Assembly (NCBI GenBank): GCA_044233485.1
Contig: JBIIJY010000003.1
Location: 32,481-96,480, forward strand
DNA from: Minisyncoccia bacterium
GTDB lineage: Bacteria > Patescibacteriota > Minisyncoccia > Phycocordibacterales > UBA6065
Direction of reading: 5' to 3'
DNA: 64,000 nt
Made by a program: the position numbers and the translations under genes. This document shows, in pieces, positions 25,600 through 44,399 of this stretch (the first letter of the stretch is position 1; each line of letters begins with the position of its first letter). The notes under the pieces are model-generated. The model worked only from the letters and a program-made list of their open reading frames with translations, did not search any database and was not told the DNA's origin.

Positions 25600-25603
25600 A
25601 GAA

Positions 25604-26641: not shown

Positions 26642-26647
26642 TGATGA

Positions 26648-27682
26648 TTATGAAAGTAACTCTTGTATCTTACTCACAAATTCCTCCTCACGATAGTCTG
26701 CAATGCGCAACTTTGGATAACTCTCTGCAAGTTCACGAGCCACCCCAACGTCAGCCGCTACAATGCGACCACCACTCGCTGCCGCTTCAGCAAGTACGAG
26801 ACCGTACCCTTCATAGAGCGATGCGTGCACCAGAATAGCATGTCTCATGTATGTCCAAATATCCTCTGGCGCAAGCCTCGTCTCAAACTCCACACAACCC
26901 GGTAATTCATGATTGGCACGCTGGCGCAACTGAGGCTCGAGCGAACCTTGGCCAATAAAGATAAGTTTAAATTTCACTCCTTTTTCTTGTAGCTTGCGAG
27001 CAACTTTAAGCGTGAAGAACAGGTTTTTTTCTTTCTCGAGTCTTCCTACAGAAATAAGTACACAATCTGTGCCAAGAAAACGTTCTTGAAAATTAAAAGT
27101 ATCTTTTGTACCCCGTATCCCCTCTCTATCAAAGGCAATCGGCTCGACTCGGATTATCTCTGGTGCGAGGTGATAGTGAGCTACAAGATTTTCTTTGACA
27201 CGATTTAAGACTACCCGGACTCGGTCTACACGCTTAAACACCCACGAAGCGAGCACACAACGAATACGGTTGAGTACTGAGTGTTTCTTGAAGTACGGTG
27301 AAAATGGATCCGTATGTAGCTGTACTTCAAAGTTAATGTGCGGAAATCTCATTTTTAGGAAAGCCCCGACAATACCGCACTCAAAAGGATCTTGTGTTGA
27401 AATGGTGATTTGCTCAAAAGAAGAATTCTCGATACAGGTACGCGCCGCTCGATAGGCGTCAAGGAGATACAGGAGCTTATTGTATGACCTTGTAGGAATA
27501 AGTGTAGCCTGCGTCGAAATAGTCTGAACCTGAAAGGCATCTGAGCGCCCGGTGAAGACAATCATATCGAAACGCCCGTACTGACGTGCGTAACCCTCGT
27601 GTCGAACACGAACTGGGCTTGCCTGTTCAAAAAGCTTTCTATCAGTACCGATAATTATTCGATGTTCATTCATGGCGAGCAT
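26648..27682 (-). CDS. glycosyltransferase family 1
   Basis: 344 aa with the EX7E motif region ASLYEGYGLVLAEAAASGGRIVAADVG. Confidence 0.8.
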   Translation of the reverse strand: MLAMNEHRIIIGTDRKLFEQASPVRVRHEGYARQYGRFDMIVFTGRSDAFQVQTISTQATLIPTRSYNKLLYLLDAYRAARTCIENSSFEQITISTQDPFECGIVGAFLKMRFPHINFEVQLHTDPFSPYFKKHSVLNRIRCVLASWVFKRVDRVRVVLNRVKENLVAHYHLAPEIIRVEPIAFDREGIRGTKDTFNFQERFLGTDCVLISVGRLEKEKNLFFTLKVARKLQEKGVKFKLIFIGQGSLEPQLRQRANHELPGCVEFETRLAPEDIWTYMRHAILVHASLYEGYGLVLAEAAASGGRIVAADVGVARELAESYPKLRIADYREEEFVSKIQELLS

Positions 27683-28805
27683 TTAGGCGAGAATAGAGGC
27701 GCACATGATCACGCGCACACTCCTCCCAGGTGTAATGAAAAGAGATACTCTTGCATGCGGCCACACACTCTTCATACGGAAGTGCGTCTTCTAGGTGAAC
27801 GATTTTTTCAGTGAGTGAGTGTGCTTGGTGTGGATCGATTGTCAGAATATCAGGAATTTCGTACGGTAGAAAATTTTCTTTTGTTATCAAAAATGGAATT
27901 CCGAGAGCAATACACTCATTGATTTGATTAGGAGAAACGTCAGTCCAGCTCGGTACTACCACATAGCGAGCATGAATGACTCGCTTAAGGATGAGTTCTC
28001 GTCGCTGTGAAGGAAACACTTTTACACGATCACCTATTTCATACTCTTCAATCAGTCGGAGGATCTCTTGTTTCCGAGGGCCGTCGCCAATCAAAACAAG
28101 GTCAGCAGTTGTACCAGATGCTGCATACGCCTGCAAGAGCGTCTCAATATTTTTCATCACAATGAATCGACCCCAAAACACAATCTCCTGCTTTCCTTCC
28201 TGGGGTGCCCAGATGAGTTTCTCTGGATTATCGTACCCAGGATTTACAATCACTTCTCGTATTTGCCCCTTCTGTCCGGGATATACCGTTGCATAGAGAT
28301 CTTTTTGTTGTCTCGAGTTGAAAACAACCCCTCGCGCCCCAGCTATCACCCAAGACGTACAAGCCCCGAGAAACGGAAACATCTTGTTTTTCTTTTGAGA
28401 GTAAAATTCATTAAGCGTGCAAGGTGTGTATCCTGCATCGAGGTACCGCTCCCAGGTATATGACCCACCGATACGGACAACATACGGGATCCGACGCATC
28501 ATCGAAACTACTCGTACTGGAATTCCCGCACTCAACACATCAAAACTATAAAGACACTCTGCATTTTTTGCTACCTGGAATAATTTCCACAAGTAATGGA
28601 GATGATTCAATACACGAAACCGTCGGACGACGCGCACTACCGTAAATGGATACTCAACATCAAACTCATACGCACTTTTGTGTGAATAGGTCAGCACGGT
28701 GACAGTATGACCTTGCTTGGTTAGCGAGTGTGCGAGTTCTTTCGTATAGGTCGCCGGACCACCCGCCTCTGGCTCGAATATTCCTGTTGCGAGGACTATG
28801 TTCAT
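27666..28805 (-). CDS. glycosyltransferase family 1-like
   Basis: 379 aa. MNIVLATGIFEPEAGGPATY N-terminus and a C-terminal ...PSWTDVSPNQINECIALGIPFLITKEN segment. Confidence 0.75.
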   Translation of the reverse strand: MNIVLATGIFEPEAGGPATYTKELAHSLTKQGHTVTVLTYSHKSAYEFDVEYPFTVVRVVRRFRVLNHLHYLWKLFQVAKNAECLYSFDVLSAGIPVRVVSMMRRIPYVVRIGGSYTWERYLDAGYTPCTLNEFYSQKKNKMFPFLGACTSWVIAGARGVVFNSRQQKDLYATVYPGQKGQIREVIVNPGYDNPEKLIWAPQEGKQEIVFWGRFIVMKNIETLLQAYAASGTTADLVLIGDGPRKQEILRLIEEYEIGDRVKVFPSQRRELILKRVIHARYVVVPSWTDVSPNQINECIALGIPFLITKENFLPYEIPDILTIDPHQAHSLTEKIVHLEDALPYEECVAACKSISFHYTWEECARDHVRLYSRLNARHE

Positions 28806-28809
28806 ACTT

Positions 28810-29976
28810 CTATCCTAGCAAAATATCTCTCATTTGAAGAGCGATCTGCTCCCAATCGAAACAAGACCGGATGAGGCTCACCGCCCGCGCTCGTAGTGAG
28901 GCGTCTGCCTTAAGAGCACGATTAATACCAGCCGCAATGGATTGACTATCTCCCACCTGCACTAGAAATCCTGTTTCATTATCTCTAAGGAAGTCTGGAA
29001 TCCCACCGACGGGTGTACCGACCACAGGAATTCCACATGCCATCGCCTCCAGAAACGAATTCCCCAAGCCTTCAGAGCGTGAGGCGCGCACAAAACAGTC
29101 CGCCGCTCGAATATGCAGTGGCAATTCTCGAAACGGAACATGTCCTGCAAAATAAATCCGTGAGCTCAATTTATATAACTCAGCAATCCCCACTAACGCT
29201 TCATGATCCGGACCACTTCCACACATTAAAAAGACCACATCATCTGGCAAGTCCTTAAACGCCATAATCATCTCTTTGCACCCATTTTTTTCAACCAACC
29301 GCCCTGTAGTGACCACAATCCGAGCAGTCGTCGGGATACGATAACGCGCGCAGATCTGCTCTTTCGCATCACTTGCTGTAATCGACTCATTAAATAGTGT
29401 GAGATCGACGCCGTTTGGGATGACTACTACCTTTTGCGCACCCATCTCTGTTGCAAACTGCGCGAGAGAATGTGAAATGACCTGTACACTCTTTGCACGA
29501 GCGAAGAGCATCTTGAATGCAAACCACAGTGGTTTCATCCGAGAACGAATATGTGCATGAGTATCTCCTTCTTGGAGCGTAAGTATATAGGGAATTTTCG
29601 TAACCAAGTGGAGTTTGAGAGCAGCGAGTGAATTATATGAGGCCATCATCGCCCATAAAAGATCGTAGGTATTAGTACGACAGAGTCTGTATCCTTTCCA
29701 AAAACCGAGCACAGGAAAGAGAAGTTTTGTCAGTTCAAGATGCCATGGAAGAATATTATTTTCTCCGACAGTGGCACCCCACCCGATCCGATACACATTG
29801 ACCGCACCGACTCGCTCAAAGCGTGGAGATCGCGAATCAAGTCGGAGAGTGATCATATCAAAATCCACCTCAGGCATTCGCTTAGTCAATTCATCGAGTG
29901 CCACTTCTGCACCACCTACAAAGCGCGGGAGATAGACAGTCGAAAATATCAAAATGCGTTTTCGTGAAGCATTCAT
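28810..29976 (-). CDS. glycosyltransferase family 1
   Basis: 388 aa. Contains RSEGLGNSFLEAMACGIPVVGTPVGGIPDFL (EX7E). Confidence 0.88.
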   Translation of the reverse strand: MNASRKRILIFSTVYLPRFVGGAEVALDELTKRMPEVDFDMITLRLDSRSPRFERVGAVNVYRIGWGATVGENNILPWHLELTKLLFPVLGFWKGYRLCRTNTYDLLWAMMASYNSLAALKLHLVTKIPYILTLQEGDTHAHIRSRMKPLWFAFKMLFARAKSVQVISHSLAQFATEMGAQKVVVIPNGVDLTLFNESITASDAKEQICARYRIPTTARIVVTTGRLVEKNGCKEMIMAFKDLPDDVVFLMCGSGPDHEALVGIAELYKLSSRIYFAGHVPFRELPLHIRAADCFVRASRSEGLGNSFLEAMACGIPVVGTPVGGIPDFLRDNETGFLVQVGDSQSIAAGINRALKADASLRARAVSLIRSCFDWEQIALQMRDILLG

Positions 29977-29977
29977 A

Positions 29978-31798
29978 CTATTCTTCTATATCGAGTAACT
30001 TTTTCATTTCTTCGAAGCTCAATGTAAACACATCTTTCTCTGGTGCTTGCTTTGGAGATACCGGGGCTGGTGGAATACTAGACACTGGTTTTGCCGCTTG
30101 AGTTTCGACTTGTACAATTTTTTCTTTAACTACTACCGGAGTTGGTGACTTGGTCACTTCAGCAACAGGCTTCGGCTCATCTTTTTGATTCTTGATTGTC
30201 GATAAGAGCGAGCGTAATCCTTCTAGATCCTTCTTCTGCTCTGCGACTGGTTTCTCAAACGGCTTATTTTTTGTATCAGACTTAAGTGCATTGAGGGATA
30301 TTTGAGCAGGTCGCTCAGGTTGTATTTGTGGTGCAGGCGCGACTTTCTCTCGGAGTGGTTGCGGTGTGGGTTTAGACTCTACGAGCGGAGCGACTGAGGT
30401 CTTTACTACCGAAACTGCCGGTGACTGCTTTGGAGGCTGCACGGGAGTGCTCGCACCTGGCGCACTTGGACGAGATTGAGGATTTCTATTCTCAGAGCCT
30501 TTTTTGGGTTCGTCAATTGATTGCTTGCGTACATAATCCTCAGCATCCTCTCGTGGAGCGGTAAATTGTAATCGTGAGTTTTCAATCGCCTGATTTTTAA
30601 AACTCACTGACGGCTCCTGAATCGGTGGAAGTGAGCGGGCAGAAAAAGGCTGTGAGCCAATTCCGTCAATCATGAGACGTAAATACATCTGATACGAACC
30701 CAGATTGACGATATCCTCGGCAGTAAACTGTGGAGCAAATTCTTTTTCAAAGATCTCAGCGTCAATTGGGCCAATACGGAAAATAATCATCGAACCCACG
30801 TTACCAAACACCGCTGCTCGCACCTCCTCTTCCATTTGTTCCACATACTGATGAGCAATCGTGAGATTCAATTTATATTTTCGCGCCTCAGAGAGGATGT
30901 TGGCAAAAGACTCGTTCGCAAAAGACTGAAACTCATCCACAAATAGATAGAAGTTCGGCAAGGCCTTGAGTACTTTTTCTGGCGCGTCGGCTCGTGACAT
31001 CGCTGCCAAATAAATCTTGGTAATGAGCATTGAGCCAAGCAAGTTAGTATTTGTCTCCCCCACTCGACCTTTCGAGAGGTTGATGATCATAATCTTCCCT
31101 TCATCCATGATCTTTCGAATATCGAAGCTTGATTTTGGCTGACCGATAATATTTCGAATGACCGGATTCGAGATAAACTGACCGATCTTATTTTGAATCG
31201 CGGCTCCAGCCTCTTGCATGTACCGCTCTCCATACTTTTCAAACTCATTCACCCAAAAAGCTTTAACCGCAGGATCCTTAACATTATCAACAACTGTTTT
31301 TCGATAGGCCTTGTCTGCCAAAATACGATTCACCCCGATCATGGTCGAACCAGGATTTTCCAAAAGTGCCAACAGGATATTACTCAAAATATACTCCATT
31401 CGAGCCGACCAGGCATCGACCCAAATCTTTTTGAAGACCGACATGAGTCCGTTCACTACCAAAAATCGCTTGTCTGGCCCTGGGTCTTCGAGGACGTTAA
31501 ATGAAATCGGGTGCTCGAGATCAAACGGCGCAAAATATAAAACATCCTTGATTCGATGCTCGGGAATATAGTTGAGGAGTTTCTCGGCAGTTCCCCCGTG
31601 CGGATCGAGAAAGGCCATCCCATTTCCGTTCTGTATATCCTGAACCGCCATATTTTCAAGGAGGGTCGACTTCCCCATACCGGTCTTACCGATGACATAG
31701 ACATGGCGAGTTCTGTCCTTGGCCTTAATTCCAAACTTTACGAGCCGATTTCGAGAGTCGGTCTCACCAAAATAGGTTATTTTGTCATCCGGATTCAT
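29978..31798 (-). CDS. VirD4/TraD-like P-loop ATPase (type IV coupling-protein-like) with a long disordered Pro/Lys/Gln-rich tail
   Basis: 606 aa. Walker A VIGKTGMGKST and Walker B FYLFVDEFQS, followed by KYKLNLTIAHQY. The last 170 or so residues are low complexity and end in the acidic LLDIEE. No TM segment seen. Confidence 0.75.
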   Translation of the reverse strand: MNPDDKITYFGETDSRNRLVKFGIKAKDRTRHVYVIGKTGMGKSTLLENMAVQDIQNGNGMAFLDPHGGTAEKLLNYIPEHRIKDVLYFAPFDLEHPISFNVLEDPGPDKRFLVVNGLMSVFKKIWVDAWSARMEYILSNILLALLENPGSTMIGVNRILADKAYRKTVVDNVKDPAVKAFWVNEFEKYGERYMQEAGAAIQNKIGQFISNPVIRNIIGQPKSSFDIRKIMDEGKIMIINLSKGRVGETNTNLLGSMLITKIYLAAMSRADAPEKVLKALPNFYLFVDEFQSFANESFANILSEARKYKLNLTIAHQYVEQMEEEVRAAVFGNVGSMIIFRIGPIDAEIFEKEFAPQFTAEDIVNLGSYQMYLRLMIDGIGSQPFSARSLPPIQEPSVSFKNQAIENSRLQFTAPREDAEDYVRKQSIDEPKKGSENRNPQSRPSAPGASTPVQPPKQSPAVSVVKTSVAPLVESKPTPQPLREKVAPAPQIQPERPAQISLNALKSDTKNKPFEKPVAEQKKDLEGLRSLLSTIKNQKDEPKPVAEVTKSPTPVVVKEKIVQVETQAAKPVSSIPPAPVSPKQAPEKDVFTLSFEEMKKLLDIEE

Positions 31799-34918: not shown

Positions 34919-34947
34919 GAAAAACTCTGCACAAGGCAGAGTTTTTC
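34919..34947 (-). terminator. intrinsic terminator (palindromic, A5/T5-flanked)
   Basis: GAAAAACTCTGC-ACAA-GGCAGAGTTTTTC. On the minus strand it directly follows the structured RNA and precedes the ATG at 34854 by about 64 nt. Confidence 0.7.
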
Positions 34948-34950
34948 AAT

Positions 34951-35090
34951 AGGAGTTCGGAGTAAAACCCTAGCAAAAGCTAGGTGGGTCCCCTCACTGT
35001 TACCGCCAAGGCGGAGCAGAATGTGAAGGATCAAGCCTTCGTTGGAGTCCCAAAATTTTAGGTATAGAGTTTTTACTCCGAAACCCCTCC
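34951..35090 (-). ncRNA. candidate structured RNA of unknown class (cis-regulatory leader or small RNA)
   Basis: Folded by hand. A 12-bp closing helix (34956-34967 with 35071-35082) is extended by GGAG/CUCC. A second helix pairs 34985-34993 with 35044-35052. There are three local hairpins: 34969-34984, 35003-35014 and 35026-35040. The minus strand is favoured because a C-A mismatch becomes a G-U pair and one loop becomes a CUUG tetraloop. Confidence 0.45.
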
Positions 35091-35094
35091 TTTT

Positions 35095-35121
35095 ATTGTA
35101 CTCTTTTTATACAGATTGCAA
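35095..35121 (-). promoter_or_regulatory. candidate promoter for the structured RNA
   Basis: Minus strand reads TTGCAA (35121-35116), a 15-nt spacer, then TACAAT (35100-35095). This places a start near 35088-35090, exactly at the 5' end of the closing helix. The spacer is short, so confidence is low. Confidence 0.3.
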
Positions 35122-35126
35122 GTAAC

Positions 35127-35396
35127 CTAGAGCCCTATCTTGTAATCAGTGAGGGCGAACGCAACAAAACCGATGAGCGCTAAAGTGATCATCAGATTAA
35201 AGATAAAAACTAGATATTTAGAGAGGTTTTTTTCTTTTGTTCGCAGAAAAATATAGACGATCAGCGGTAAAAACACTAATAGAAACAGCGGACTTATCCA
35301 GAAGATTAGAAATAAAGGATGCTCTCCGGCATACAGACCGAAAATTACTGAGAATAGTACTAGCGCCAATTGCAAAATCAATATCTTGTTGCCCAT
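35127..35396 (-). CDS. small membrane protein, hypothetical
   Basis: 89 aa with three hydrophobic segments. The ATG directly abuts the stop of the upstream 1027-aa gene (35397), suggesting coupled translation. Confidence 0.6.
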   Translation of the reverse strand: MGNKILILQLALVLFSVIFGLYAGEHPLFLIFWISPLFLLVFLPLIVYIFLRTKEKNLSKYLVFIFNLMITLALIGFVAFALTDYKIGL

Positions 35397-38300
35397 CTAA
35401 TTTAAGTTAGTTAATAACTGCTGTATATATCGTATCAATAAATCTCGTTCACTGTCACCCAGATGGCGCTTACTCAACCTTGATCTTTTTATCTCGCGCG
35501 CGAACCCTTGAATTTCTTTTCTAATATTCTTTGTTTTCTTATTCTTTTGAAGTTTCTTTTGTATCTCACCAATCTCTTTGAGCAGTTCTTTTTTGACCCG
35601 AGGTGGCACCTCAAGAGCCAGTACATACCCTCGAATGAGCTCTAGATACTGGAGAGGTGTTAAGGTTTTACTTGTATCAATTTGGGTGTCTACCCGCCCA
35701 TCACTATCTACATCAAGCTCCAAACGAGTTGATGTGCCCGTATAGAGTACTCGACCCGAGAGAGCGGTTGATACCGGTAAGTCCTCAACAGTCTGCATTG
35801 AAGACTCCACTCCATCTGCAGACACGTGCGAGATGATTGTTGTGAAAGTGCCACTGCCCGTACCTTTCAAGCGAGCTTGCACATTACTACCCGCGACGAA
35901 CCCGGCATACTTCGCCTCACCAAACTCAAAATAGTACGAGTTCGGGATTTCTGTGGTAGTGGCATTTGTTATGCGCCCCTGTGCATCGACAAGCTCAAGT
36001 GAGACCGGTGAATGAATTGAGATTTGCGAGAAAGACAGACCCGGATAGGTGCTTGAGGCCTGACTGATGTGGGCTATAGTTTCTGTACTTGACCCCACAA
36101 TAATACTCTCAAGTAATGTCTGTACTGGCTTAGTACTCAAAATACTGGCATGTGCTCGATTTTTATTTTGAGTATTGTGCCCATACAAATCAAAGTAGAA
36201 TGCCTCAGTGGTTGATTTCATTTCTGTCGCACTTACTACCGGCACAGTCCCGTCACCAGCCAAGGTTAATGTCGGTCGTGTATCTAGTGTACCGTCGTTG
36301 TCGATATAGCTAAACCGTGCCAGTGTCGGAACACCGGTCCCGGCAACCACGAAGGTACGTATATGTTCTGGTAACTGATAGTTATCAAACGTACTATGGA
36401 ACGCCTCTGCGTCAGAGTAGTACTGACTATCAAGCTTCACGGGCATAAGGAGCGAATTATACGAAGGCCGATTTGGGTCGAGACTGGCAAGTAAGAAGGA
36501 CTTTTGATCTTGAAAATTTAGCACTCCTCGGCCATAGGGCGAGAGGTTAATCCCTGAAAACGTCCGACCTCCCTGCTCAAAGGAGATAGTGCTTGTTGAG
36601 ATGTGCTCATAGTATTTTTCGGTTGGTAGAAGATAATATGGAGCTGGTATGTCGCGGCCAAGCTTTTTGGCACTTGCCTTATTTTGAAAAATACCAAAGA
36701 ATATTGATTGCTCGTACCCAAACATTAGGGCTGCTATTGTTTGCGGCGCACCAAGATGTGGTGTGGCGACAAACACCACCTTATCAATTGAACGCAGTAG
36801 ATCCTTGTCTTCCTCATCCGTAGAGTCCTCTAAAGTCTTAATAAACTCTTTTACTACCAGACCTCCATTACTATGAACCAGTATCGTCACTTTACCATTT
36901 TGAGCAGCCTCCTTAAGTCGTCTAAACTGAACCCTGAGACTTTCGCTTGTATTGCCCATTGGATCATCTGCCAGGTACTCACCCCGCACTATCTGTCGAG
37001 GTGAATAGCGCCAATCATAGACAAATATTCCAGCATTTCTATTCGTACGTGACGCAAATTCCTGTAACCACTCCTCAAATTGTCCGTAGACTTCAAAAGC
37101 TGATATCGGCTTTACCAAATCTCTCGCATATATTCCAGAAGTTACCGGGTTGCGAGTTGTTGAACTGAAGTGCAACTCCCTTCCATCAGCATTTGCGTTT
37201 GGCTCCCATAGTCGATCTTCACCGCCACGAGACTCTTGTCGATAAAGTCGACTCCCTTGAAAACCTGGTATGAACAAAACACCTGAGCAACATGCCGTCT
37301 CACTTTCTTGCACAGGAACTTCAGTAAGCCACGGACGGAACGAGACGAGATCAGTTACTTCATTACCCAGCCCCTCAGGATTACTCGCATGGTACGGCCC
37401 AGTCGCATCTCCCCAGAACACATTTGTCGCGATCACTTCATTTTCTGTGTTATTAAGAATCCCGACATTGTTATTGCGAACTGATGAATTCTCTATACGC
37501 AATATATCCGAAGATACACTTTGTGCCTGAACTTCAAATAGCGAACGCAACTGCTCCCAAAATCCTAGAATCACCGGCCCCGTATAGGCGCGTTCAATAC
37601 CATTTCCATTAGCTCGAATGTCAGAAAACTCTATTTGAACATTCCCCTCGAGGGTCCAGATACCGGTCCTGAAACCTTCTATTGTTGTTGAGGCCAGCGT
37701 TGTTGTACTGTGATCGCTCCATACCCCCTGACCTCTACCCATACCGAGCAAGGTGACATTATCGAGCCTCAGGCCAGAACTTCGAGCGTATACGGCCGCA
37801 ACATTACGAGGTTGAGTAAACAAAACACGGGCGTCAACGAGCTCAACATCCTTCGCCCGTATAAGCGACAAAGGATTGGCATCTATCCCGACTAACCCCT
37901 CTATGCGTATTTTCTTTTTCGTATCCGATAGATATACACCAGAATAGCTGTCACGAACATGTATATCTGTGAGCACGGCACTTTCCCGAGTATTAAGTAG
38001 TCCCACTCCACCAAAATCTTCGATTAATACATGCTCAATCTTTGGCACTGTCCTATTCACCCAAACTCCACCTTCACTTCTACGCAGATGCGTGTAAATA
38101 AGCTCTATCTCACCCGCCCCAGTAGTCTCTATGTTCCAAAATGGGTAGTTTGTTTCGGTACCTGATTCAAGATCTTGAATTGAAGTGAGTTGCACGAGCT
38201 CAGTCGGTGTTCCGCGAGCTACGAATCTACCCGACACTTCCAGGTAGCCATCATCAGAAAAATACACCGTCACCCCAGGATCAACACTGAGTATCACCCC

Positions 38301-38480
38301 GGCAGGAATTTCTACAAAACCACTTACCAGGTACGGACCTTGCTCTTTGGTAAGTACCTTGTCCGTCACCAGTACCGGATCAAGCTCGGTAAGGGCATAT
38401 ATATTGTTCGGGAGTAGCAGAGCGCAGAAGAGACTGAAGATCAGAGTTACAGAATACACAACGTATTCATGTGATTTCAC
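35397..38480 (-). CDS. secreted/anchored multidomain protein: N-terminal parallel beta-helix region plus LCAT/PGAP1-like alpha/beta-hydrolase (lipase/acyltransferase) domain
   Basis: 1027 aa with a GTG start and an N-terminal signal/anchor (VTLIFSLFCALLLPNNIYA). Beta-helix-like repeats span about residues 50-390. The hydrolase part follows: VLFIPGFQGSRLY, YDWRYSP, the nucleophile elbow TILVHSNGGLVV and VVFVATPHLGAP. The C-terminus is a Lys-rich helical tail. Confidence 0.75.
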   Translation of the reverse strand: MKSHEYVVYSVTLIFSLFCALLLPNNIYALTELDPVLVTDKVLTKEQGPYLVSGFVEIPAGVILSVDPGVTVYFSDDGYLEVSGRFVARGTPTELVQLTSIQDLESGTETNYPFWNIETTGAGEIELIYTHLRRSEGGVWVNRTVPKIEHVLIEDFGGVGLLNTRESAVLTDIHVRDSYSGVYLSDTKKKIRIEGLVGIDANPLSLIRAKDVELVDARVLFTQPRNVAAVYARSSGLRLDNVTLLGMGRGQGVWSDHSTTTLASTTIEGFRTGIWTLEGNVQIEFSDIRANGNGIERAYTGPVILGFWEQLRSLFEVQAQSVSSDILRIENSSVRNNNVGILNNTENEVIATNVFWGDATGPYHASNPEGLGNEVTDLVSFRPWLTEVPVQESETACCSGVLFIPGFQGSRLYRQESRGGEDRLWEPNANADGRELHFSSTTRNPVTSGIYARDLVKPISAFEVYGQFEEWLQEFASRTNRNAGIFVYDWRYSPRQIVRGEYLADDPMGNTSESLRVQFRRLKEAAQNGKVTILVHSNGGLVVKEFIKTLEDSTDEEDKDLLRSIDKVVFVATPHLGAPQTIAALMFGYEQSIFFGIFQNKASAKKLGRDIPAPYYLLPTEKYYEHISTSTISFEQGGRTFSGINLSPYGRGVLNFQDQKSFLLASLDPNRPSYNSLLMPVKLDSQYYSDAEAFHSTFDNYQLPEHIRTFVVAGTGVPTLARFSYIDNDGTLDTRPTLTLAGDGTVPVVSATEMKSTTEAFYFDLYGHNTQNKNRAHASILSTKPVQTLLESIIVGSSTETIAHISQASSTYPGLSFSQISIHSPVSLELVDAQGRITNATTTEIPNSYYFEFGEAKYAGFVAGSNVQARLKGTGSGTFTTIISHVSADGVESSMQTVEDLPVSTALSGRVLYTGTSTRLELDVDSDGRVDTQIDTSKTLTPLQYLELIRGYVLALEVPPRVKKELLKEIGEIQKKLQKNKKTKNIRKEIQGFAREIKRSRLSKRHLGDSERDLLIRYIQQLLTNLN

Positions 38481-38577: not shown

Positions 38578-38609
38578 AAACAAAAAACCCCTTGCGGGGT
38601 TTTTTGTTT
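38578..38609 (-). terminator. intrinsic terminator after the surface-protein gene
   Basis: Minus strand reads AAACAAAAAACCCC-GCAA-GGGGUUUUUUGUUU, 36 nt after the stop at 38645. Confidence 0.8.
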
Positions 38610-38644: not shown

Positions 38645-40459
38645 TTACGGATTCTGAACTGAAGTTCTCCAGTCTGTCTTACCAGACATGAAGTTTGATG
38701 TTGAGATTGTCGCTCCGTCGTCTGCTGACCATCGGATAGCGTCAATACCAATTGCTGTACCAGCGATTGGGTTTCCAGCAGCATCCTTACCTGGGAGTTC
38801 GAACACAAGATCACTAATAGTCATTGTGTTGTTTTCCTGGAGTCGGAAACTGTTAGAACCTACACCTGTTGTAACTACACCTGATGAAGGAATCGCAAAA
38901 CCTGATGACGAAGCGGTGAAGAATGTAACTTCTGAACCAGCGTTGTTATAGGTCTTGAATGCGAATGCTCGACTAGCTGAAGTTGAAGCCTGTGAACCGA
39001 ATGTAAGGTCTCCACCCTTAGCTGTAATCTGAACAGAGAACGAAGCCTTGATCGTAGATGTACTTAGAGTTGAACCACTGTTGTTAGATCCTGAAGTTGA
39101 AATTGTTCGACTGTTGAGGACGATAACTGGACCAGTGTTTCGAACATACATGTTTTCACCTGTAGCTGAACCTGTCTTTGTAGCAACTGAGTCACCACGT
39201 GAGTTTTCAGCTGTAACATCAGCAGCAACGAGTGTTCCCTTGAATACTGTTGCTGAAGTTCCTGCGTTTCGAACGTCTACTGCGACTGTATAAGTCTTTG
39301 TAGAGTCCTTTGCAACTACTACACTGTCGATGTTTGTGAAGTTAGCTTCGTATGAGTTTACAGCGTCAAATACTGGTGTAATTGACTCGATAACTGTTGA
39401 ACCATCCATGAGGTAGACGTTACTGAATGTTGCTGAACCTGAAGTTGTTGCGATCTTGATTGTAAGATCTGTAACATCAACTGAATCTTTCTCAGCTCGG
39501 AGGTCGAATGAGAAGAGAGTGACTTTGTCAGCCTCGTTCTCAAGTGAACCTGAAGTTGCAACCACGTCTGTAGACTTGATTGTACTTGAGTTTGTAGAAA
39601 GTGTAAGTCGAGATGAGTCAACCTGATCAGCATCCACATTCATACTTCTTGAAAGAGCTGAGTTTGGAGCGAATTGATCGATCGCAGCACCATCTACACC
39701 TCGAATTCCGTCAGTTCCAATTGTGATTGTGTAGTCTGATGAGAGATCAGTTGAGTCAATTGAAGAGAATACATCGGCTGCGATGTAAAGATTCTTCTTT
39801 GTGTTCTTTCCGATTACATAACTAAAGTTTGAGATAGTTACGTAATAGTTTGAACCATCCTTAACAACTGTTGATGAGTTGAGGTCAACTTCAGCGACTG
39901 TGTTCATTGAATCATCAAGAACATACAATCGATCGTAGATCTTGTTATAGATCTTTGTTGAGTTTCCAAGATCGAGCTTTACTCGCTGAACATTGATGTC
40001 TGAGTTTTTAGCCTCAAGTCGTGCTGCATAGACAACAACTTTCTTGTCTCCTTCGTAGATTGTTGTAGGAACATTCTGTGAAGTAAGAGCCATAGAAAGA
40101 GTTCCTTCTACACCTGTGTTACCCGCAACTGGAGTGTATCCAGATGGAGTAGATGGAGTAGAAACAACTGATGTTCCGTTAGCTTTAGCTCGAGTGATTG
40201 GACCAAAGAATCCAGCTGCTGGTGTAATACCATTTGCCTGCTGGAAAGCGATGACCGCAGCTCGAGTAAGAGGACCAAAATATGCAGTTGGAGCTGAGAT
40301 TTTGAGGAACCCCTTTGAAATAAGGAAGGACTGGAGAGCTGAAACTTCAGCACCTCGTGATCCTACGGTAAGGTTTGTGTTGAATGTCATTGTCTGAGCT
40401 GAAGCAGAAACTGCTACAACAAAGGCAAATGATGCCAACGCGATTGCTAATTTTTTCAT
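38645..40459 (-). CDS. secreted cell-surface protein with N-terminal peptidoglycan-binding (PG_binding_1) domain and a long Ser/Thr/Asn/Val-rich beta-rich region
   Basis: 604 aa. Signal peptide MKKLAIALASFAFVVAVSASAQT. The PG-binding repeat is SRGAEVSALQSFLISKGF...FGPLTRAAVIAFQQANGI. The remainder is low complexity and beta-strand-like. A strong terminator lies downstream and 630 bp of non-coding DNA upstream. Confidence 0.8.
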   Translation of the reverse strand: MKKLAIALASFAFVVAVSASAQTMTFNTNLTVGSRGAEVSALQSFLISKGFLKISAPTAYFGPLTRAAVIAFQQANGITPAAGFFGPITRAKANGTSVVSTPSTPSGYTPVAGNTGVEGTLSMALTSQNVPTTIYEGDKKVVVYAARLEAKNSDINVQRVKLDLGNSTKIYNKIYDRLYVLDDSMNTVAEVDLNSSTVVKDGSNYYVTISNFSYVIGKNTKKNLYIAADVFSSIDSTDLSSDYTITIGTDGIRGVDGAAIDQFAPNSALSRSMNVDADQVDSSRLTLSTNSSTIKSTDVVATSGSLENEADKVTLFSFDLRAEKDSVDVTDLTIKIATTSGSATFSNVYLMDGSTVIESITPVFDAVNSYEANFTNIDSVVVAKDSTKTYTVAVDVRNAGTSATVFKGTLVAADVTAENSRGDSVATKTGSATGENMYVRNTGPVIVLNSRTISTSGSNNSGSTLSTSTIKASFSVQITAKGGDLTFGSQASTSASRAFAFKTYNNAGSEVTFFTASSSGFAIPSSGVVTTGVGSNSFRLQENNTMTISDLVFELPGKDAAGNPIAGTAIGIDAIRWSADDGATISTSNFMSGKTDWRTSVQNP

Positions 40460-40901
40460 ATATGAATCAATTAATTAAGTACTTTCTCTTCTTAACAAGT
40501 AAGTCTTATAAGTTTGCGAAGATACTCATACGGTTTTGAAGTCCGGATTATTTCGTGTCGAACGAAAGTGTTCCGTCTTCTACGAACTCTTTTGACGGAG
40601 TCCGTTCTACTAATTTCGATTGTGTTTCTATACGAGATAGAATTCGACACACGCACGAAAGTTAGCATACATATCTAACTGTCTTTTCAGAATTTCTGTC
40701 GATGTCTGAATAAGGAATATCGGGAGTGTGCCACAACGTTTTATACTGCCTAATTGAGTTGTAAACGTTCTGGTTTGTATGAAGTAGTGATACGACATAC
40801 GAGCAAGGATAAGCACCCTTGCTTGCGTACAGTATATCGAACCTACATACAAAAATCACGTCGGTGTGGATAGTAAAGCGTAAATATCGATAAAATCGTT
40901 A

Positions 40902-40964
40902 TTTTTAGGCCTTTTTTACCCATCTCACCAACGTATACTAGTATAGCACATTTTGGCCTAAAAA
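40902..40964. repeat. 10-bp perfect inverted repeat (TTTTTAGGCC / GGCCTAAAAA) flanking a 12-bp palindrome TATACTAGTATA
   Basis: Read directly: arms at 40902-40911 and 40955-40964, palindrome at 40934-40945. On the minus strand the palindrome reads TGC-TATACT, an extended -10-like element. Confidence 0.7.
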
Positions 40965-41093
40965 GCTATATTTTGCCTACATAGCCTAGCCAGAGAGCCA
41001 GGGCACAGAACGAGTGAAAAATAGCTCAAGAAACACACTTTAAAACTCGAGTTTTTCACTACAAAACTTCATCGACTCTTTAAAAGGCTACTC

Positions 41094-41882
41094 TTAACTA
41101 GTAAGTGAATATTTTGACCAGCGACGCTCCCCGGTACGGACCACCACCCCCTCTTCAACGAGTGTATTGAGCTCTCGCTGAATCGTCTTTTCAGATACAT
41201 CGGCGATCACGTGCGAGAAATCTTTTATCGTCAAATTTGGTCTTGTTTTTAAGATAGTAACAATCGTATTTCTTCGCGCAGTATTCTTAGTTTGAAGTGA
41301 AGGCAATGATCTGGTATTTGACACCACAGGAACACTGTCGGGCACATCACTCTCTATAACTGTCCCGGCATTTTTAGGAGGCACTTCAACCGATCGAGAC
41401 CCTTTATCTATACCGCCCACCTCAGAGAGCTCTTTAGGAGAATGTCTTTTATGTGTAACTACATGTCCTTTATAGTACTGCTCTTCAAAACCAGTCTCAA
41501 ACTCACCTTTTGTGTCGAATCGAAGCTCTGCAATAAGGTCGGCTTTATTGGCACCCGAAATCTGAACGAATGTTTTCAGGTAGCGAATCTCATCACGGAC
41601 AATAAGGTACTGACCCTCATTTAAGTACCCAGAGTTTCGAGTGAGTTGTAGATAAAATTCAATCTCAGAGAGAAGGCCATGAATCGAAGCCTGCACACCG
41701 AATACATTCTTACCCTGATCAAGGCAGACACTCTCGGCAAGCTTAGTAACCAGGAGGGTCGAGGTTGGTAGAAATGCGCCATTCATGAACTTATTCATAA
41801 TCAGTAAAAAGACATTAGCGATTTTTGCTGTCTTTTTTTGTATAAATTCACTCTTGTCTTTTATTTTGTCGCTATGATTCAT
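41094..41882 (-). CDS. putative transcriptional regulator: N-terminal four-helix-bundle-like domain, disordered linker, C-terminal DeoR-type winged HTH
   Basis: The C-terminus RRNTIVTILKTRPNLTIKDFSHVIADVSEKTIQRELNTLVEEGVVVRTGERRWSKYSL is a typical wHTH. The N-terminal ...ASIHGLLSEIEFYLQLTRNSGYLNEGQYLIVRDEIRYLKTF resembles four-helix-bundle (IVS-like) proteins. First ATG is at 41882; the track starts at TTG 41909. Confidence 0.7.
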   Translation of the reverse strand: MNHSDKIKDKSEFIQKKTAKIANVFLLIMNKFMNGAFLPTSTLLVTKLAESVCLDQGKNVFGVQASIHGLLSEIEFYLQLTRNSGYLNEGQYLIVRDEIRYLKTFVQISGANKADLIAELRFDTKGEFETGFEEQYYKGHVVTHKRHSPKELSEVGGIDKGSRSVEVPPKNAGTVIESDVPDSVPVVSNTRSLPSLQTKNTARRNTIVTILKTRPNLTIKDFSHVIADVSEKTIQRELNTLVEEGVVVRTGERRWSKYSLTS

Positions 41883-41982
41883 GCTTATATATAAGACACG
41901 ATATTGCAAAATGTATTACTTATAAAAGACTTATTTTGCTGATACCTATCTCGGTTGGTGCTTAGTATATAAGACAATTGCA
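41882..41982. repeat. imperfect direct repeat TGCTTA(n)TATATAAGACA(n)ATTGCA, two copies
   Basis: Copy A is at 41882-41908 and abuts the regulator ATG. Copy B is at 41959-41982. Both lie in the divergent regulator/ftsK intergenic region. Confidence 0.5.
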
Positions 41983-42104
41983 GTGATTCAACTGTTTCAA
42001 AGCTTGGAGCCGTGTTGTATTACTCTGTCCCTGACAAACCTCCAGCTCGCCTTCTCAAAACTTGCTCGACAACTTATTCACAGTTGGGTTTACATGCTAA
42101 AATA

Positions 42105-44399
42105 ATGAGCATAATGGCGACCAAACCAAAAGACATTTCATCAAAGCAGTCTCTCGAGCTCGACGATCTTTCACTTGAAACAATCGACGGCGAGCCCCTC
42201 TTCGAAACGGCGGATAGTAGTCGTAGTAAAAAGACTCGCCGGAGTAAGTCAAAGAAGGAGGACTCTGGCCTTTCTGATCAGACTATTCAAATTCTCTATG
42301 CGATCGGCTTCTTTGTGTTTGGAATCTTTTTTTCTGCCTCAGCGATCAACAAAGCTGGAGTATTTGGCGAGATGGTTTTTAGTGGAGTGAGCAAAGCTTT
42401 GGGTTATGGCTATTACCTCCTCCCAATCCTTCTCATCGCTCTCGGTCTCGCCTTCCTTGCTGATTTCAAACGACGCTTCGATATGTGGCGCGGCATCGGC
42501 TCTGTATTGTTTTTCCTTTCATGTCTGGGACTGATGCAGACAATCGAAGAAGGAGCTGGTGGAGTGCTCGGAACTTTGGTTGCCCTTCCGCTTCTCCGAT
42601 CGATCGATACCTACATGACAGTGATTATTTTGGTGGCACTCATCCCTGTATCACTCGTCATTACTTTTGATGTAGAAGTAATCACCCGAGTCCGTGAATG
42701 GCTACTTGCACTCAGTGCTCGACTACTCTCACTCTTCAAGCGAGCACCACGGGATCAAGAGGTAAAAATCTCTTCTGATTATGAAGAAGCATCAGTCGAG
42801 GAGGATGAGGAGCCCATACCAGTACCCGAAGAAGATGAAGAGGTCGCCCCTGTGCTTGCCCCTGCAACTCTTCCCGACCCTGTTCCTGACCTGAAGGCAA
42901 ATTCGATTGTGTTTAAATTCTCAGACAAAGAGTATAAAGCCCCTCCGCTTTCACTCCTTGAAAAGGATAAGGGTAAAGCTGGGGTCGGTGACATTAAGGC
43001 CAATGCCAATATCATCAAGCGCACACTTGGAAACTTCGGCATTGATGTGGAGATGGATGAAATTACTATTGGTCCTTCTGTAACACGTTTCGCCCTCAAA
43101 CCAGCTGAAGGAGTGAAGCTCTCAAAGATCGTTGCCCTTGGCAATGACTTGTCGCTTGCGCTTGCCGCTCACCCACTACGTATCGAAGCGCCAATCCCTG
43201 GAAAATCCCTCGTTGGTATCGAGATACCTAATCACACCAAAACAACTGTCGGTCTCGGAAGTGTCTTGGCTACTGAGGAGTTTAAGAATTCCGACAAAGC
43301 GCTCTATGTCGCACTCGGTAAGACTATTTCAGGCAAGCCTCTCTACTCGAATATCGCTAAAATGCCCCATTCGCTTGTCGCTGGTACTACCGGCTCGGGT
43401 AAATCGGTCATGATACACGCGATCATCAACTCTCTCTTGTACCGAAATGGTCCAGATGCCCTAAAATTCATCATGGTGGATCCAAAACGTGTTGAGTTGA
43501 CGCTCTACAACAATATTCCTCATCTCCTCACCCCGGTCATTACAGAGCCAAAAAAGGCTATCTTGGCGCTCAAGTGGGCAACTAAAGAAATGGAACGTCG
43601 TTATGAGATTCTTCAGGAACATAAAGTTCGAGATATCGACTCATACCACAAAAATGTCGTTCACCCACGACGCGAAGGAGGACTTGAAGTCGATCCGATG
43701 CCCTACATCGTGGTCATCATGGATGAAATTGCCGACCTTATGCAGACATATCCTCGTGAACTTGAATCAGGTATCGTCCGTCTCGCTCAGATGAGTCGTG
43801 CGGTCGGTATACACCTCATCCTCGCCACCCAACGCCCTTCAGTAAATGTCATTACTGGTCTCATCAAAGCAAACATTCCTACCCGCCTCGCCCTCAAGGT
43901 TGCTTCACAGGTCGATTCTCGAACTATTATCGACACCGTCGGTGCGGAAACGCTGCTCGGATATGGTGACATGCTCTACGTCTCGAGTGACAACTCAAAA
44001 CCAACCCGAGTTCAATCTCCATTCATTTCTGAAGTAGAGGTAAAGAAAGTGGTTGACTATTTGATCTCAAACTACCGCGACGAGCTTTCTGATGAAATCA
44101 ACCTCACCGGAACAACCCCCGCAGAGAAAGATCCGATTTTTGACTCAATGAATTCTTCTGGTGGAAATGACTTTGGCGACGATGATGATGACGATATGTA
44201 TGAGGATGCAAAAGCAGCCGTTCTCGAAGCTGGTAAAGCCTCTACATCGTATATACAACGTAAACTTCGTGTGGGATACTCTCGAGCAGCTCGCCTGGTC
44301 GACCTTCTTGAGAAGCGCGGAGTTATCGGCCCCGCTGATGGCGCAAAGCCACGACAGGTAATTTCTGATGGCGCAGGAGCTGCAAACGAACAAAACTAA
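42105..44399 (+). CDS. ftsK: DNA translocase FtsK/SpoIIIE
   Basis: N-terminal TM segments, an acidic/Pro-rich linker, the motor domain (VAGTTGSGKSV Walker A, VVIMDEIADL Walker B) and the C-terminal gamma wHTH (TSYIQRKLRVGYSRAARLVDLLEKRGVIGP). ATG starts are at 42105 or 42114; the track starts at an upstream alternative codon, 42012. Confidence 0.93.
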   Translation: MSIMATKPKDISSKQSLELDDLSLETIDGEPLFETADSSRSKKTRRSKSKKEDSGLSDQTIQILYAIGFFVFGIFFSASAINKAGVFGEMVFSGVSKALGYGYYLLPILLIALGLAFLADFKRRFDMWRGIGSVLFFLSCLGLMQTIEEGAGGVLGTLVALPLLRSIDTYMTVIILVALIPVSLVITFDVEVITRVREWLLALSARLLSLFKRAPRDQEVKISSDYEEASVEEDEEPIPVPEEDEEVAPVLAPATLPDPVPDLKANSIVFKFSDKEYKAPPLSLLEKDKGKAGVGDIKANANIIKRTLGNFGIDVEMDEITIGPSVTRFALKPAEGVKLSKIVALGNDLSLALAAHPLRIEAPIPGKSLVGIEIPNHTKTTVGLGSVLATEEFKNSDKALYVALGKTISGKPLYSNIAKMPHSLVAGTTGSGKSVMIHAIINSLLYRNGPDALKFIMVDPKRVELTLYNNIPHLLTPVITEPKKAILALKWATKEMERRYEILQEHKVRDIDSYHKNVVHPRREGGLEVDPMPYIVVIMDEIADLMQTYPRELESGIVRLAQMSRAVGIHLILATQRPSVNVITGLIKANIPTRLALKVASQVDSRTIIDTVGAETLLGYGDMLYVSSDNSKPTRVQSPFISEVEVKKVVDYLISNYRDELSDEINLTGTTPAEKDPIFDSMNSSGGNDFGDDDDDDMYEDAKAAVLEAGKASTSYIQRKLRVGYSRAARLVDLLEKRGVIGPADGAKPRQVISDGAGAANEQN

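What the first reader, a model, noticed from the sequence alone, without database searches (positions are those of the whole stretch)
35127..38480. Secreted beta-helix / LCAT-like alpha/beta-hydrolase fusion with a coupled small membrane protein: possible host-lipid acquisition module
Seen in sequence. The 1027-aa protein has a signal/anchor and about 340 aa of parallel beta-helix-like repeats. These are followed by a domain with the LCAT/PGAP1-type lipase signature: FIPGFQGSRLY, YDWRYSP, VHSNGG nucleophile elbow and ATPHLGAP. Its stop abuts the ATG of an 89-aa three-TM protein. The pair sits directly downstream of the PG-binding surface protein gene. Established knowledge: LCAT-like enzymes are phospholipases/acyltransferases, and CPR/Patescibacteria generally lack de novo fatty-acid and phospholipid synthesis, so they are thought to depend on host lipids. 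Inference: a surface-exposed adhesin-like beta-helix fused to a phospholipase/acyltransferase is a plausible device for attacking or harvesting host membranes. I do not recognise this exact architecture.
Basis: partly seen in the sequence, partly recalled or inferred. Interest (0 to 1): 0.55.

Follow-up and report, generated by a model that had tools for sequence, protein, structure and literature searches.

The report
Secreted LCAT-like lipase of CPR bacteria
An ultrasmall (CPR) bacterium, of a group that is not thought to make its own lipids, encodes an exported enzyme that joins a sugar-binding-type beta-helix to a phospholipase A2/LCAT-type lipase, with a tiny membrane protein gene attached; this belongs to a large, unstudied, apparently CPR-only family and is a concrete, testable candidate for taking lipids from other cells.

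Summary

The architecture is not unique. The hydrolase, beta-sandwich and four-helix-bundle core has over 2,500 cluster representatives at E<=1e-30, and about a third of sampled members carry the beta-helix. Every named source is CPR/Patescibacteria.

A tightly coupled small multi-TM gene follows 22 of 72 homologues, against 2 of 161 control ORFs. In the window's clade it follows 21 of 30. These small proteins fall into unrelated sequence groups, and the window's 89-aa protein is an orphan.

The upstream PG-binding gene is syntenic in many loci but is separated from the lipase gene by a terminator hairpin.

Enzyme class and export are well supported. Host-lipid harvesting is still an inference, and the function of the small partner is unknown.

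The parts
35397..38480 (-). Gene for the 1027-aa exported multidomain LCAT/LPLA2-like hydrolase (GTG start; alternative GTG at 38459 gives the 1020-aa JGI call)
   Evidence: ORF list. 100% identical to P0001 on a 681-kb JGI contig. Pfam LCAT and Beta_helix both above cut-off. AF2 model with pLDDT 85.
38394..38480 (-). N-terminal signal peptide or signal anchor (aa 1-29: MKSHEY, then hydrophobic VVYSVTLIFSLFCALLLP, then NNIYA|LTE)
   Evidence: Kyte-Doolittle hydrophobic segment at aa 4-31. Modelled as a lone helix at aa 4-22. 157 of 191 M-starting family members have a hydrophobic N-terminus. The cleavage site is inferred by eye; SignalP was not available.
37311..38378 (-). Right-handed parallel beta-helix (aa ~35-390), pectin-lyase/NosD (CASH) type, with low-confidence inserts at aa 107-154 and 295-323
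36081..37289 (-). LCAT/LPLA2-fold alpha/beta-hydrolase domain (aa ~398-800)
36870..36872 (-). Codon of Ser537, the predicted nucleophile in HSNGG (nucleophile elbow between strand 531-536 and helix 539-552)
   Evidence: Invariant in 46 and in 50 family sequences. Position checked. Secondary structure from the model.
36252..36254 (-). Codon of Asp743 (GDGTV motif), the predicted catalytic acid
   Evidence: G742, D743 and V746 are invariant in 50 sequences. Position checked.
36150..36152 (-). Codon of His777, the predicted catalytic base
   Evidence: Invariant in 50 sequences. It lies 34 residues after Asp743, in the canonical Ser-Asp-His order.
35676..36035 (-). Family-conserved beta-sandwich (aa 816-935) with HSPV, IPNSYY and DVDxDGxxD (Ca-binding-like) motifs
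   Evidence: Models. Near-invariant columns S824, P825, D832, G835, G877, D923. The profile aligns end to end in the top 150 representatives.
35403..35657 (-). C-terminal basic four-helix bundle (aa 942-1026; 21 K/R against 10 D/E)
35127..35396 (-). Abutting 89-aa gene for a predicted three-TM membrane protein (sequence orphan)
   Evidence: ORF and junction. TM-like segments. Called as a gene by JGI at 89 or 82 aa. The only database hit is itself. Not matched by the HMM of the 4-TM partner family, E=0.65. Best of six frames by codon score.
38582..38606 (-). Terminator-like hairpin with T-run between the PG-binding gene and the lipase gene
   Evidence: Read in the sequence. The consensus scan did not list it.
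34920..34946 (-). Terminator-like perfect 11-bp hairpin (AAAAACTCTGC-CTTGT-GCAGAGTTTTT) about 180 nt after the 89-aa gene; likely end of the two-gene unit
   Evidence: Read in the sequence. A second weaker hairpin at 34969-34984 was listed by the scan.
38645..40459 (-). Syntenic upstream gene for a 604-aa exported PG_binding_1 protein (context, separate transcription unit)
   Evidence: Pfam PG_binding_1 E=1.4e-10. A homologue lies upstream on the same strand in 24 of 67 related loci and in L001.

Best explanation
This is a two-gene unit of a Paceibacteria/Parcubacteria-type CPR bacterium.

Gene 1 encodes a Sec-exported, modular surface or extracellular enzyme with five parts:
- a signal peptide;
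- a pectin-lyase/NosD-type beta-helix, which most likely binds (or possibly cuts) a surface polysaccharide;
- an LPLA2/LCAT-fold serine hydrolase with the triad Ser537-Asp743-His777;
- a family-specific beta-sandwich;
- a basic four-helix bundle.

The most likely activity is phospholipase A-type deacylation of diacyl glycerolipids, possibly with acyl transfer as in LCAT and LPLA2. The substrate would be a membrane outside the cell's own cytoplasm, most plausibly the envelope of a host or neighbouring cell. The products would be free fatty acids and lysolipids, which an organism of this lineage is not expected to synthesise.

Gene 2 is translationally coupled and encodes a small polytopic membrane protein. 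It acts with the enzyme in an unknown way: self-protection, docking or product hand-over.

Shown here: fold, conserved triad, export-type N-terminus, lineage restriction, and recurrence of a small membrane partner in the window's clade.

Inferred: lipid substrate, foreign-membrane target, nutritional role and partner function.
For: Enzyme class:
- Pfam LCAT 54.3 bits against a cut-off of 21. All 50 sampled relatives hit LCAT.
- Foldseek to LPLA2: E=8.5e-12, TM 0.70. LCAT: E~1e-8.
- H536, S537, G539, G540, G742, D743, V746 and H777 are invariant.

Export:
- Hydrophobic N-terminus with an AxA-like site, shared by 157 of 191 relatives.

Targeting module:
- The N-terminal region varies from 0 to about 760 aa on a constant core.

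Lineage:
- All named sources are CPR.
- Of 80 genome loci, 62 carry CPR names, 18 are unnamed MAGs and none is non-CPR.

Partner gene:
- A coupled small protein with 3 or more TM segments follows 22 of 72 homologues, against 2 of 161 control ORFs, Fisher p=8e-11. In the window's clade it follows 21 of 30.
- The stop and start codons abut.

Biological need:
- Lysolipids are enriched in CPR cells and could arise by phospholipase A action (PMC7242380).
- A secreted phospholipase has been proposed for host-lipid use in Vampirococcus (PMC8080830).
Against: - There are no biochemical, localisation or expression data.
- No SignalP or TMHMM run was possible.
- Synteny with core genes (FtsK, an HTH protein, the PG-binding protein, rplJ) is stable. 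This looks more like a housekeeping envelope gene than an offensive module.
- About two thirds of family members have no small partner gene.
- The partners are not homologous to one another, and the window's partner is an orphan.
- Hosts of Paceibacteria-type CPR are largely unknown, and some may be free-living.
- The absence of fatty-acid synthesis was not tested for this genome; only 64 kb was seen.
- The co-occurrence statistic treats related loci as independent.
Confidence: 0.5

Rival explanations
1. Housekeeping remodelling of the cell's own envelope. The exported LCAT-like enzyme acts on the outer leaflet of the CPR cell's own membrane. It would either generate lysolipids, perhaps for curvature in ultrasmall cells, or re-acylate acceptors by transacylation. 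The small membrane protein would be its membrane partner.
For: Conserved gene order with core genes (FtsK, HTH, PG_binding_1 protein, the enzyme, then rplJ) across proteins only about 30% identical. The family is very large and appears vertically inherited in two clades. LCAT and LPLA2 are transacylases (established knowledge). Lysolipids are enriched in CPR and were proposed as a curvature adaptation (PMC7242380). The basic C-terminal bundle could sit on an anionic surface.
Against: The variable N-terminal modules of receptor-binding or tailspike type are easier to explain by diverse external targets than by a constant self substrate. Both genes have atypical codon usage compared with core genes. 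There is no direct evidence either way.
Confidence: 0.2
2. Antibacterial toxin with immunity. The enzyme is a Tle4-like membrane-destroying effector used mainly to kill or lyse other bacteria, and the small membrane protein is its cognate immunity factor.
Against: No T6SS or T7SS components were found among the window genes scanned; about ten ORFs of 110 aa or more were not scanned. Export appears to be Sec-dependent. Known phospholipase immunity proteins are soluble or lipoprotein binders, not 80-150-aa polytopic proteins (established knowledge). Two thirds of homologues, and one whole clade, lack a partner. The locus is in stable core synteny, not a variable island.
Confidence: 0.15
3. Non-lipid carbohydrate or cell-wall esterase. 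The beta-helix binds a polysaccharide and the alpha/beta-hydrolase removes acyl or acetyl groups from it (for example capsule, EPS, peptidoglycan or teichoic acid), acting together with the neighbouring PG-binding protein.
For: The beta-helix is closest to polysaccharide epimerases, lyases, glycosidases and tailspike depolymerases. A PG_binding_1 gene is a conserved neighbour. Weak hits to generic esterase families DUF676, DUF900 and DUF7379.
Against: The best matches, by a wide margin and over nearly the whole length of the target, are lipid enzymes: LPLA2, LCAT and Tle4, followed by bacterial lipases. LCAT is the top Pfam family in all 50 relatives. The beta-helix is present in only about a third of the family.
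Confidence: 0.1

Closest known systems
Lysosomal phospholipase A2 (PLA2G15/LPLA2) and LCAT (Pfam PF02450)
   Different: About 15-18% identity. No PDB hit by sequence, even with a profile. Bacterial (CPR) rather than eukaryotic. Embedded in a 1027-aa protein with a beta-helix, a beta-sandwich and a four-helix bundle. Coupled to a small membrane protein. Activity and acceptor specificity are unknown.
Tle4 (PA1510/TplE), type VI secretion phospholipase effector of Pseudomonas aeruginosa, with immunity protein Tli4 (PDB 4r1d)
   Different: There is no T6SS context among the genes scanned, and a Sec-type signal replaces T6SS delivery. The partner here is an 89-aa polytopic membrane protein, not a soluble periplasmic binder. 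The locus is in conserved core synteny.
Pectin-lyase-fold (CASH/NosD-type) beta-helix proteins: AlgG/AlgE4 epimerases, NosD, phage tailspike depolymerases, pneumococcal adhesin PfbA
   Different: No catalytic residues were examined. Two low-confidence inserts. Here it is fused to a lipase rather than being the enzyme itself.
Secreted phospholipase proposed for host-lipid use in the CPR predator Vampirococcus lugosii (Vamp_34_196; PMC8080830)
   Same: Same proposed logic: a CPR bacterium lacking phospholipid synthesis exports a phospholipase that both damages the host membrane and supplies lipids.
   Different: That proposal concerns a different gene in a different CPR lineage, and no homology to it was tested here. 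The present family is defined by an LCAT/LPLA2 fold with a conserved C-terminal module, and was found here in Paceibacteria-type genomes.

Membership tests
LCAT-like alpha/beta-hydrolases (Pfam PF02450; LCAT, LPLA2, PDAT) | Sequence match to the family HMM above the curated gathering score | tested here: met
   54.3 bits against 21, E=1.8e-14, aa 462-728. 50 of 50 sampled relatives also match.
LCAT-like alpha/beta-hydrolases (Pfam PF02450; LCAT, LPLA2, PDAT) | Alpha/beta-hydrolase core with the LPLA2/LCAT-type inserted subdomains | tested here: met
LCAT-like alpha/beta-hydrolases (Pfam PF02450; LCAT, LPLA2, PDAT) | Catalytic Ser-Asp-His triad in canonical order | tested here: met
   S537, D743 and H777 are invariant in 50 diverse sequences and lie after the expected strands.
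LCAT-like alpha/beta-hydrolases (Pfam PF02450; LCAT, LPLA2, PDAT) | Phospholipase A and/or acyltransferase activity on glycerophospholipids | not testable with these tools
   Needs an enzyme assay with wild type and S537A.
Right-handed parallel beta-helix (Pfam PF13229, pectin-lyase fold) | HMM match above the gathering score and beta-helix fold in the model | tested here: met
Right-handed parallel beta-helix (Pfam PF13229, pectin-lyase fold) | Carbohydrate binding or catalytic residues of lyases, hydrolases or epimerases | not tested
   No active-site comparison was made.
T6SS Tle4-Tli4 effector-immunity pairs | Tle4-like phospholipase fold | tested here: met
T6SS Tle4-Tli4 effector-immunity pairs | Genomic association with T6SS components (VgrG, Hcp, PAAR) and T6SS-dependent delivery | tested here: not met
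   None of the 37 window genes scanned with Pfam is a T6SS component. The protein has a Sec-type N-terminus. About ten window ORFs of 110 aa or more were not scanned.
T6SS Tle4-Tli4 effector-immunity pairs | Adjacent soluble or lipoprotein immunity protein that binds the effector | tested here: not met
   The adjacent product is an 89-aa three-TM protein with no family match. Whether it gives protection cannot be tested here.
Sec-exported (signal-peptide) proteins | N-terminal n-h-c region with a type I signal peptidase site | tested here: inconclusive
   Basic n-region, 17-18-aa hydrophobic core and IYA|L site seen by eye and by hydropathy. No dedicated predictor was available, so cleaved peptide and uncleaved anchor are not distinguished.

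The most novel reading that the evidence does not exclude
This family is the missing lipid-acquisition machinery of Paceibacteria-type CPR bacteria. A surface-held LCAT/LPLA2-like transacylase docks on a host glycan through exchangeable N-terminal modules. It strips acyl chains from host phospholipids and either releases fatty acids and lysolipids for uptake or transfers the acyl chain directly to CPR lysolipid acceptors. The coupled small polytopic protein would act as the membrane-side acceptor or hand-over device, or as a self-protection component. This would explain both how CPR membranes are built without fatty-acid synthesis and why they are rich in lysolipids.
Probability: 0.15. Interest if true: 0.85.

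Novelty: new variant of a known kind. Interest (0 to 1): 0.5.

Why it matters
How CPR/Patescibacteria obtain membrane lipids is an acknowledged gap. [quoted passage not shown] Lipidomics shows that CPR cells carry ordinary acyl lipids with an excess of lysolipids that could come from phospholipase A action (PMC7242380).

Here is a large, apparently CPR-restricted family of exported LPLA2/LCAT-fold enzymes. They carry exchangeable glycan-binding-type heads, a conserved C-terminal module and, in one clade, a coupled small membrane protein. All database entries seen for the family that carry a product name are 'hypothetical protein' or a generic domain or automatic label. The papers searched did not link LCAT-type enzymes to CPR.

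This does not prove lipid scavenging. It does give a defined protein, a catalytic serine to mutate and a partner gene, so the question becomes directly testable.

Tried and rejected
- Sequence searches against PDB, with the single protein and with a family profile, found no LCAT or LPLA2 hit. Only fold comparison showed the relationship.
- A homology search for the 89-aa protein returned only itself. An HMM of the 15-member 4-TM partner family does not recognise it (E=0.65). An apparent blastp link disappeared once composition correction was switched on.
- Idea tested: the small membrane protein replaces a missing C-terminal anchor, so the two would be complementary. Rejected. C-terminal TM tails occur in 10 of 201 relatives, and in the loci they co-occur with the partner gene in 4 of 4 cases.
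- Small partner proteins from other loci have no Pfam family. NCBIfam has nothing for either protein.
- Rfam and tRNA scans of the window found nothing. The promoter scan was below the shuffled expectation, and the terminator scan missed the clearest hairpins.
- Literature searches for LCAT together with CPR found nothing relevant. The search for 'FIMAH' returned only fimA/fimH papers.
- The PG-binding gene as part of the same operon was rejected because of the intervening terminator hairpin. Its synteny, however, is real.
Full report

Yes. The ORF list shows a 1027-aa ORF at 35397..38480 on the minus strand. It starts at a GTG; JGI's gene call starts seven codons later and gives 1020 aa (P0001, 100% identical). 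An 89-aa ORF lies at 35127..35396 on the minus strand.

The TAG stop of the first ORF is immediately followed by the ATG of the second.

Hydropathy gives one N-terminal hydrophobic segment in the large protein and three TM-like segments in the small one.

LCAT PF02450 scores E=1.8e-14, 54.3 bits against a cut-off of 21. Beta_helix PF13229 scores 30.1 bits against 25.9. The upstream 604-aa protein has PG_binding_1 at E=1.4e-10. NCBIfam has no model for either protein.

**2. Anatomy**

An AlphaFold2 model was built on 46 family sequences. Its mean pLDDT is 85 and its pTM is 0.67. It resolves five parts:
- an N-terminal helix (aa 4-22), the export signal;
- a right-handed beta-helix (aa ~35-390, with two low-confidence inserts);
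- an alpha/beta-hydrolase (aa ~398-800);
- a beta-sandwich (aa 816-935);
- a four-helix bundle (aa 942-1026).

A separate model of aa 800-1027 (pLDDT 87) gives the same C-terminal structure.

Sequence-only searches of the PDB find none of these, even with a family profile.

**3. Catalytic residues**

Two alignments were examined: one of 46 and one of 50 diverse relatives, at 22-33% identity to the window protein. The invariant columns include H536, S537, G539 and G540 (the nucleophile elbow), G742, D743 and V746, and H777.

These residues lie in the canonical Ser-Asp-His order of alpha/beta-hydrolases. Ser537 sits between strand 531-536 and helix 539-552 of the model.

I could not measure distances in the model, because the coordinates are not exposed.

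**4. How common is it, and where?**

The word-indexed search with the whole protein found only six close relatives. A profile of the hydrolase plus C-terminal part found 50 clusters.

The exhaustive profile search found 8,295 cluster representatives at E<=1e-3 and 2,514 at E<=1e-30. The best 150 all score E<1e-170. Nearly all of them align across the hydrolase, beta-sandwich and helical tail. Their N-terminal regions range from 0 to about 760 aa.

Of 50 sampled members, all hit LCAT, 16 hit Beta_helix and 8 hit FIMAH in the tail. The beta-helix/LCAT fusion is therefore a common form of a large family, not a one-off.

Every source that gives an organism name is CPR. Names seen are Pacebacteria, Kaiserbacteria, Moranbacteria, Parcubacteria and Zambryskibacteria.

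In the scan of one genome per GTDB species, 62 of 80 loci carry CPR names. These are Paceibacterota, Parcubacteria, Patescibacteria, Taylorbacteria, Nomurabacteria, Kaiserbacteria, Minisyncoccia, or a blanket 'Candidatus Saccharibacteria' label in one MAG series. The other 18 are unnamed MAGs, and none is named as non-CPR.

One caveat applies: that scan was seeded by a single short motif, so it samples close relatives only.

The window itself comes from a 681-kb JGI metagenome contig. Its gene content fits a small-genome bacterium, but it does not assign a taxon on its own. It includes enolase, iPGM, SecA, MurB, several aminoacyl-tRNA synthetases, ribosomal proteins and a large glycosyltransferase cluster. 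No tRNA gene or Rfam family lies in the window.

**5. Neighbourhood**

Two features recur around the homologues.

(a) A small, tightly coupled membrane protein downstream. I defined this as 60-170 aa, three or more TM-like segments, and a gap of -30 to +60 nt.
- It follows 22 of 72 homologues, against 2 of 161 other ORFs of 250 aa or more in the same loci. Fisher p=8e-11.
- The loci are related, so this overstates independence.
- Fifteen of these proteins form one family of 125-152-aa four-TM proteins (HMM E<1e-32). Five form a second group. The window's 89-aa protein and one other belong to neither.
- None has a Pfam family.
- The window's protein has no homologue in 5.8 billion clusters except itself.
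- In a neighbour-joining tree of the hydrolase cores, the partner genes are confined to one of two clades. That clade contains the window protein, and 21 of its 30 loci have a partner.

(b) A homologue of the 604-aa PG_binding_1 protein upstream on the same strand.
- It occurs in 24 of 67 loci, often preceded by a homologue of the window's 271-aa HTH protein and by FtsK.
- This dominates the other clade.
- The window and L001 (a Pacebacteria MAG) have both features.

In the window, a clean terminator-like hairpin (38582-38606) separates the PG-binding gene from the lipase gene. Another hairpin (34920-34946) follows the 89-aa gene by about 180 nt. By sequence, the transcription unit is therefore the two-gene pair.

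Both genes score lower on a codon-usage measure than core genes. The lipase gene scores 0.11 and the 89-aa ORF 0.017, against 0.31 +/- 0.09 for core genes. Each is clearly best in its annotated frame.

**6. What it most likely does**

Well supported: an exported serine hydrolase of the LCAT/LPLA2 fold.

The step to 'phospholipase A or acyltransferase acting on membrane lipids' rests on three things. The closest structures by a wide margin are all such enzymes. The match covers nearly the whole LPLA2 chain. A bacterial antibacterial phospholipase (Tle4) has the same fold.

The step to 'foreign or host membranes, for lipid supply' rests on three further arguments:
- the export signal;
- the exchangeable N-terminal heads of receptor-binding type on a constant catalytic core;
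- the lineage restriction, combined with published evidence about CPR lipids.

That published evidence says that CPR lack complete lipid synthesis yet have normal acyl lipids with excess lysolipids, which could arise by phospholipase A action (PMC7242380). It also says that no lipid uptake or breakdown mechanism has been identified (PMC11665869). A similar idea has been proposed for a different secreted phospholipase in Vampirococcus (PMC8080830).

I put this reading at about 0.5.

**7. Rivals**

- Own-envelope remodelling: lysolipid production or transacylation at the cell's own surface. The stable core synteny favours it; the variable heads argue against it. About 0.2.
- A Tle4-like toxin with the small protein as immunity. 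The fold and the fast-evolving adjacent gene favour it. Four things argue against it: no T6SS or T7SS component among the window genes scanned, the polytopic nature of the partner, its absence from two thirds of the family, and the non-island context. About 0.15.
- A non-lipid carbohydrate or cell-wall esterase guided by the beta-helix. The fold ranking argues against it. About 0.1.

The role of the small membrane protein is open. I tested whether it substitutes for a C-terminal anchor. It does not: C-terminal TM tails, found in 10 of 201 relatives, co-occur with it.

**8. Novelty and verdict**

The enzyme is a clear member of the LCAT-like superfamily, and the beta-helix is a standard module, so nothing here is categorically new. 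What is new in degree is the following combination:
- a very large, apparently CPR-restricted family;
- a conserved extra C-terminal module;
- swappable heads;
- in one clade, a coupled small membrane partner.

Every database entry seen for the family that carries a product name is either 'hypothetical protein' or a generic domain or automatic label. The literature I could search does not link LCAT-type enzymes to CPR.

Its structural interpretation is supported, its claim of an unrecognised architecture is softened, and its functional inference remains plausible but untested. Interest 0.5.

Noticed in passing
window 55256-58711 (-): The 1151-aa isoleucyl-tRNA synthetase carries an inserted domain of about 170 aa (aa ~505-675). 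The insert matches histidine phosphatases (Pfam His_Phos_1 E=1e-32; PDB phosphoglycerate mutase and phosphoserine phosphatase). IleRS structures align in two stretches on either side of it.
   Followed up: partly
family members P0005, P0056, P0119, P0154, P0172, P0188, P0189, P0200, P0208 (C-termini): About 5% of family members end in a TM helix with a basic tail (for example ...KFIFKVK). In most, this follows a short N-L-[SG]-A-S-[AV]-G-like motif, which looks like a C-terminal sorting or anchoring signal. The window protein lacks it.
   Followed up: no
L001 9255-9641; L003, L005, L007, L009, L011, L017, L023, L025, L047, L048, L049, L052, L061, L002 (gene directly after the LCAT-like gene): A coherent, unannotated family of 125-152-aa four-TM proteins. 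They have a Cys-containing first loop and a conserved D-R/F-D-R motif before the last TM. They are always translationally coupled to the LCAT-like gene and have no Pfam match.
   Followed up: partly
L002 1-1013 and 2306-5916: The contig of homologue P0003 carries a second LCAT/PGAP1-like paralogue (735 aa), followed by its own 113-aa two-TM gene. A complete pst phosphate-uptake operon with PhoU lies immediately upstream of P0003.
   Followed up: no
window 38645-44399 and related loci (L001, L004, L019, L027, L034, L035 and others): The gene order FtsK, HTH protein (271 aa), PG_binding_1 surface protein, LCAT-like enzyme is conserved across proteins only about 30% identical. In many loci ribosomal protein L10 follows within about 100-140 nt.
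   Followed up: partly
window 34947-35126 (-): An untranslated stretch of about 180 nt lies between the stop of the 89-aa gene and the terminator hairpin. It contains a second hairpin (34969-34984). No Rfam family matches it.
   Followed up: partly
window 8226-29976: A long surface-polysaccharide region. It includes a Wzy-type ligase or polymerase, a flippase-like protein, an SGNH/AlgX-like protein (13180-14319), FkbM- and other methyltransferases, an asparagine synthase homologue and at least six GT4 glycosyltransferases in a row (20238-29976).
   Followed up: no
window 29978-31798 (-): A 606-aa protein resembling VirD4, TraG or HerA-type coupling ATPases (DUF87, TrwB_AAD_bind, T4SS-DNA_transf). 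It has a long Pro/Lys/Ser-rich C-terminal tail and sits between the glycosyltransferase cluster and infC.
   Followed up: no
window 35127-38480 (-): Both genes of the pair have lower codon-usage scores (0.11 and 0.017) than the core genes of the window (0.31 +/- 0.09). This hints at low expression, unusual composition or a different history.
   Followed up: partly
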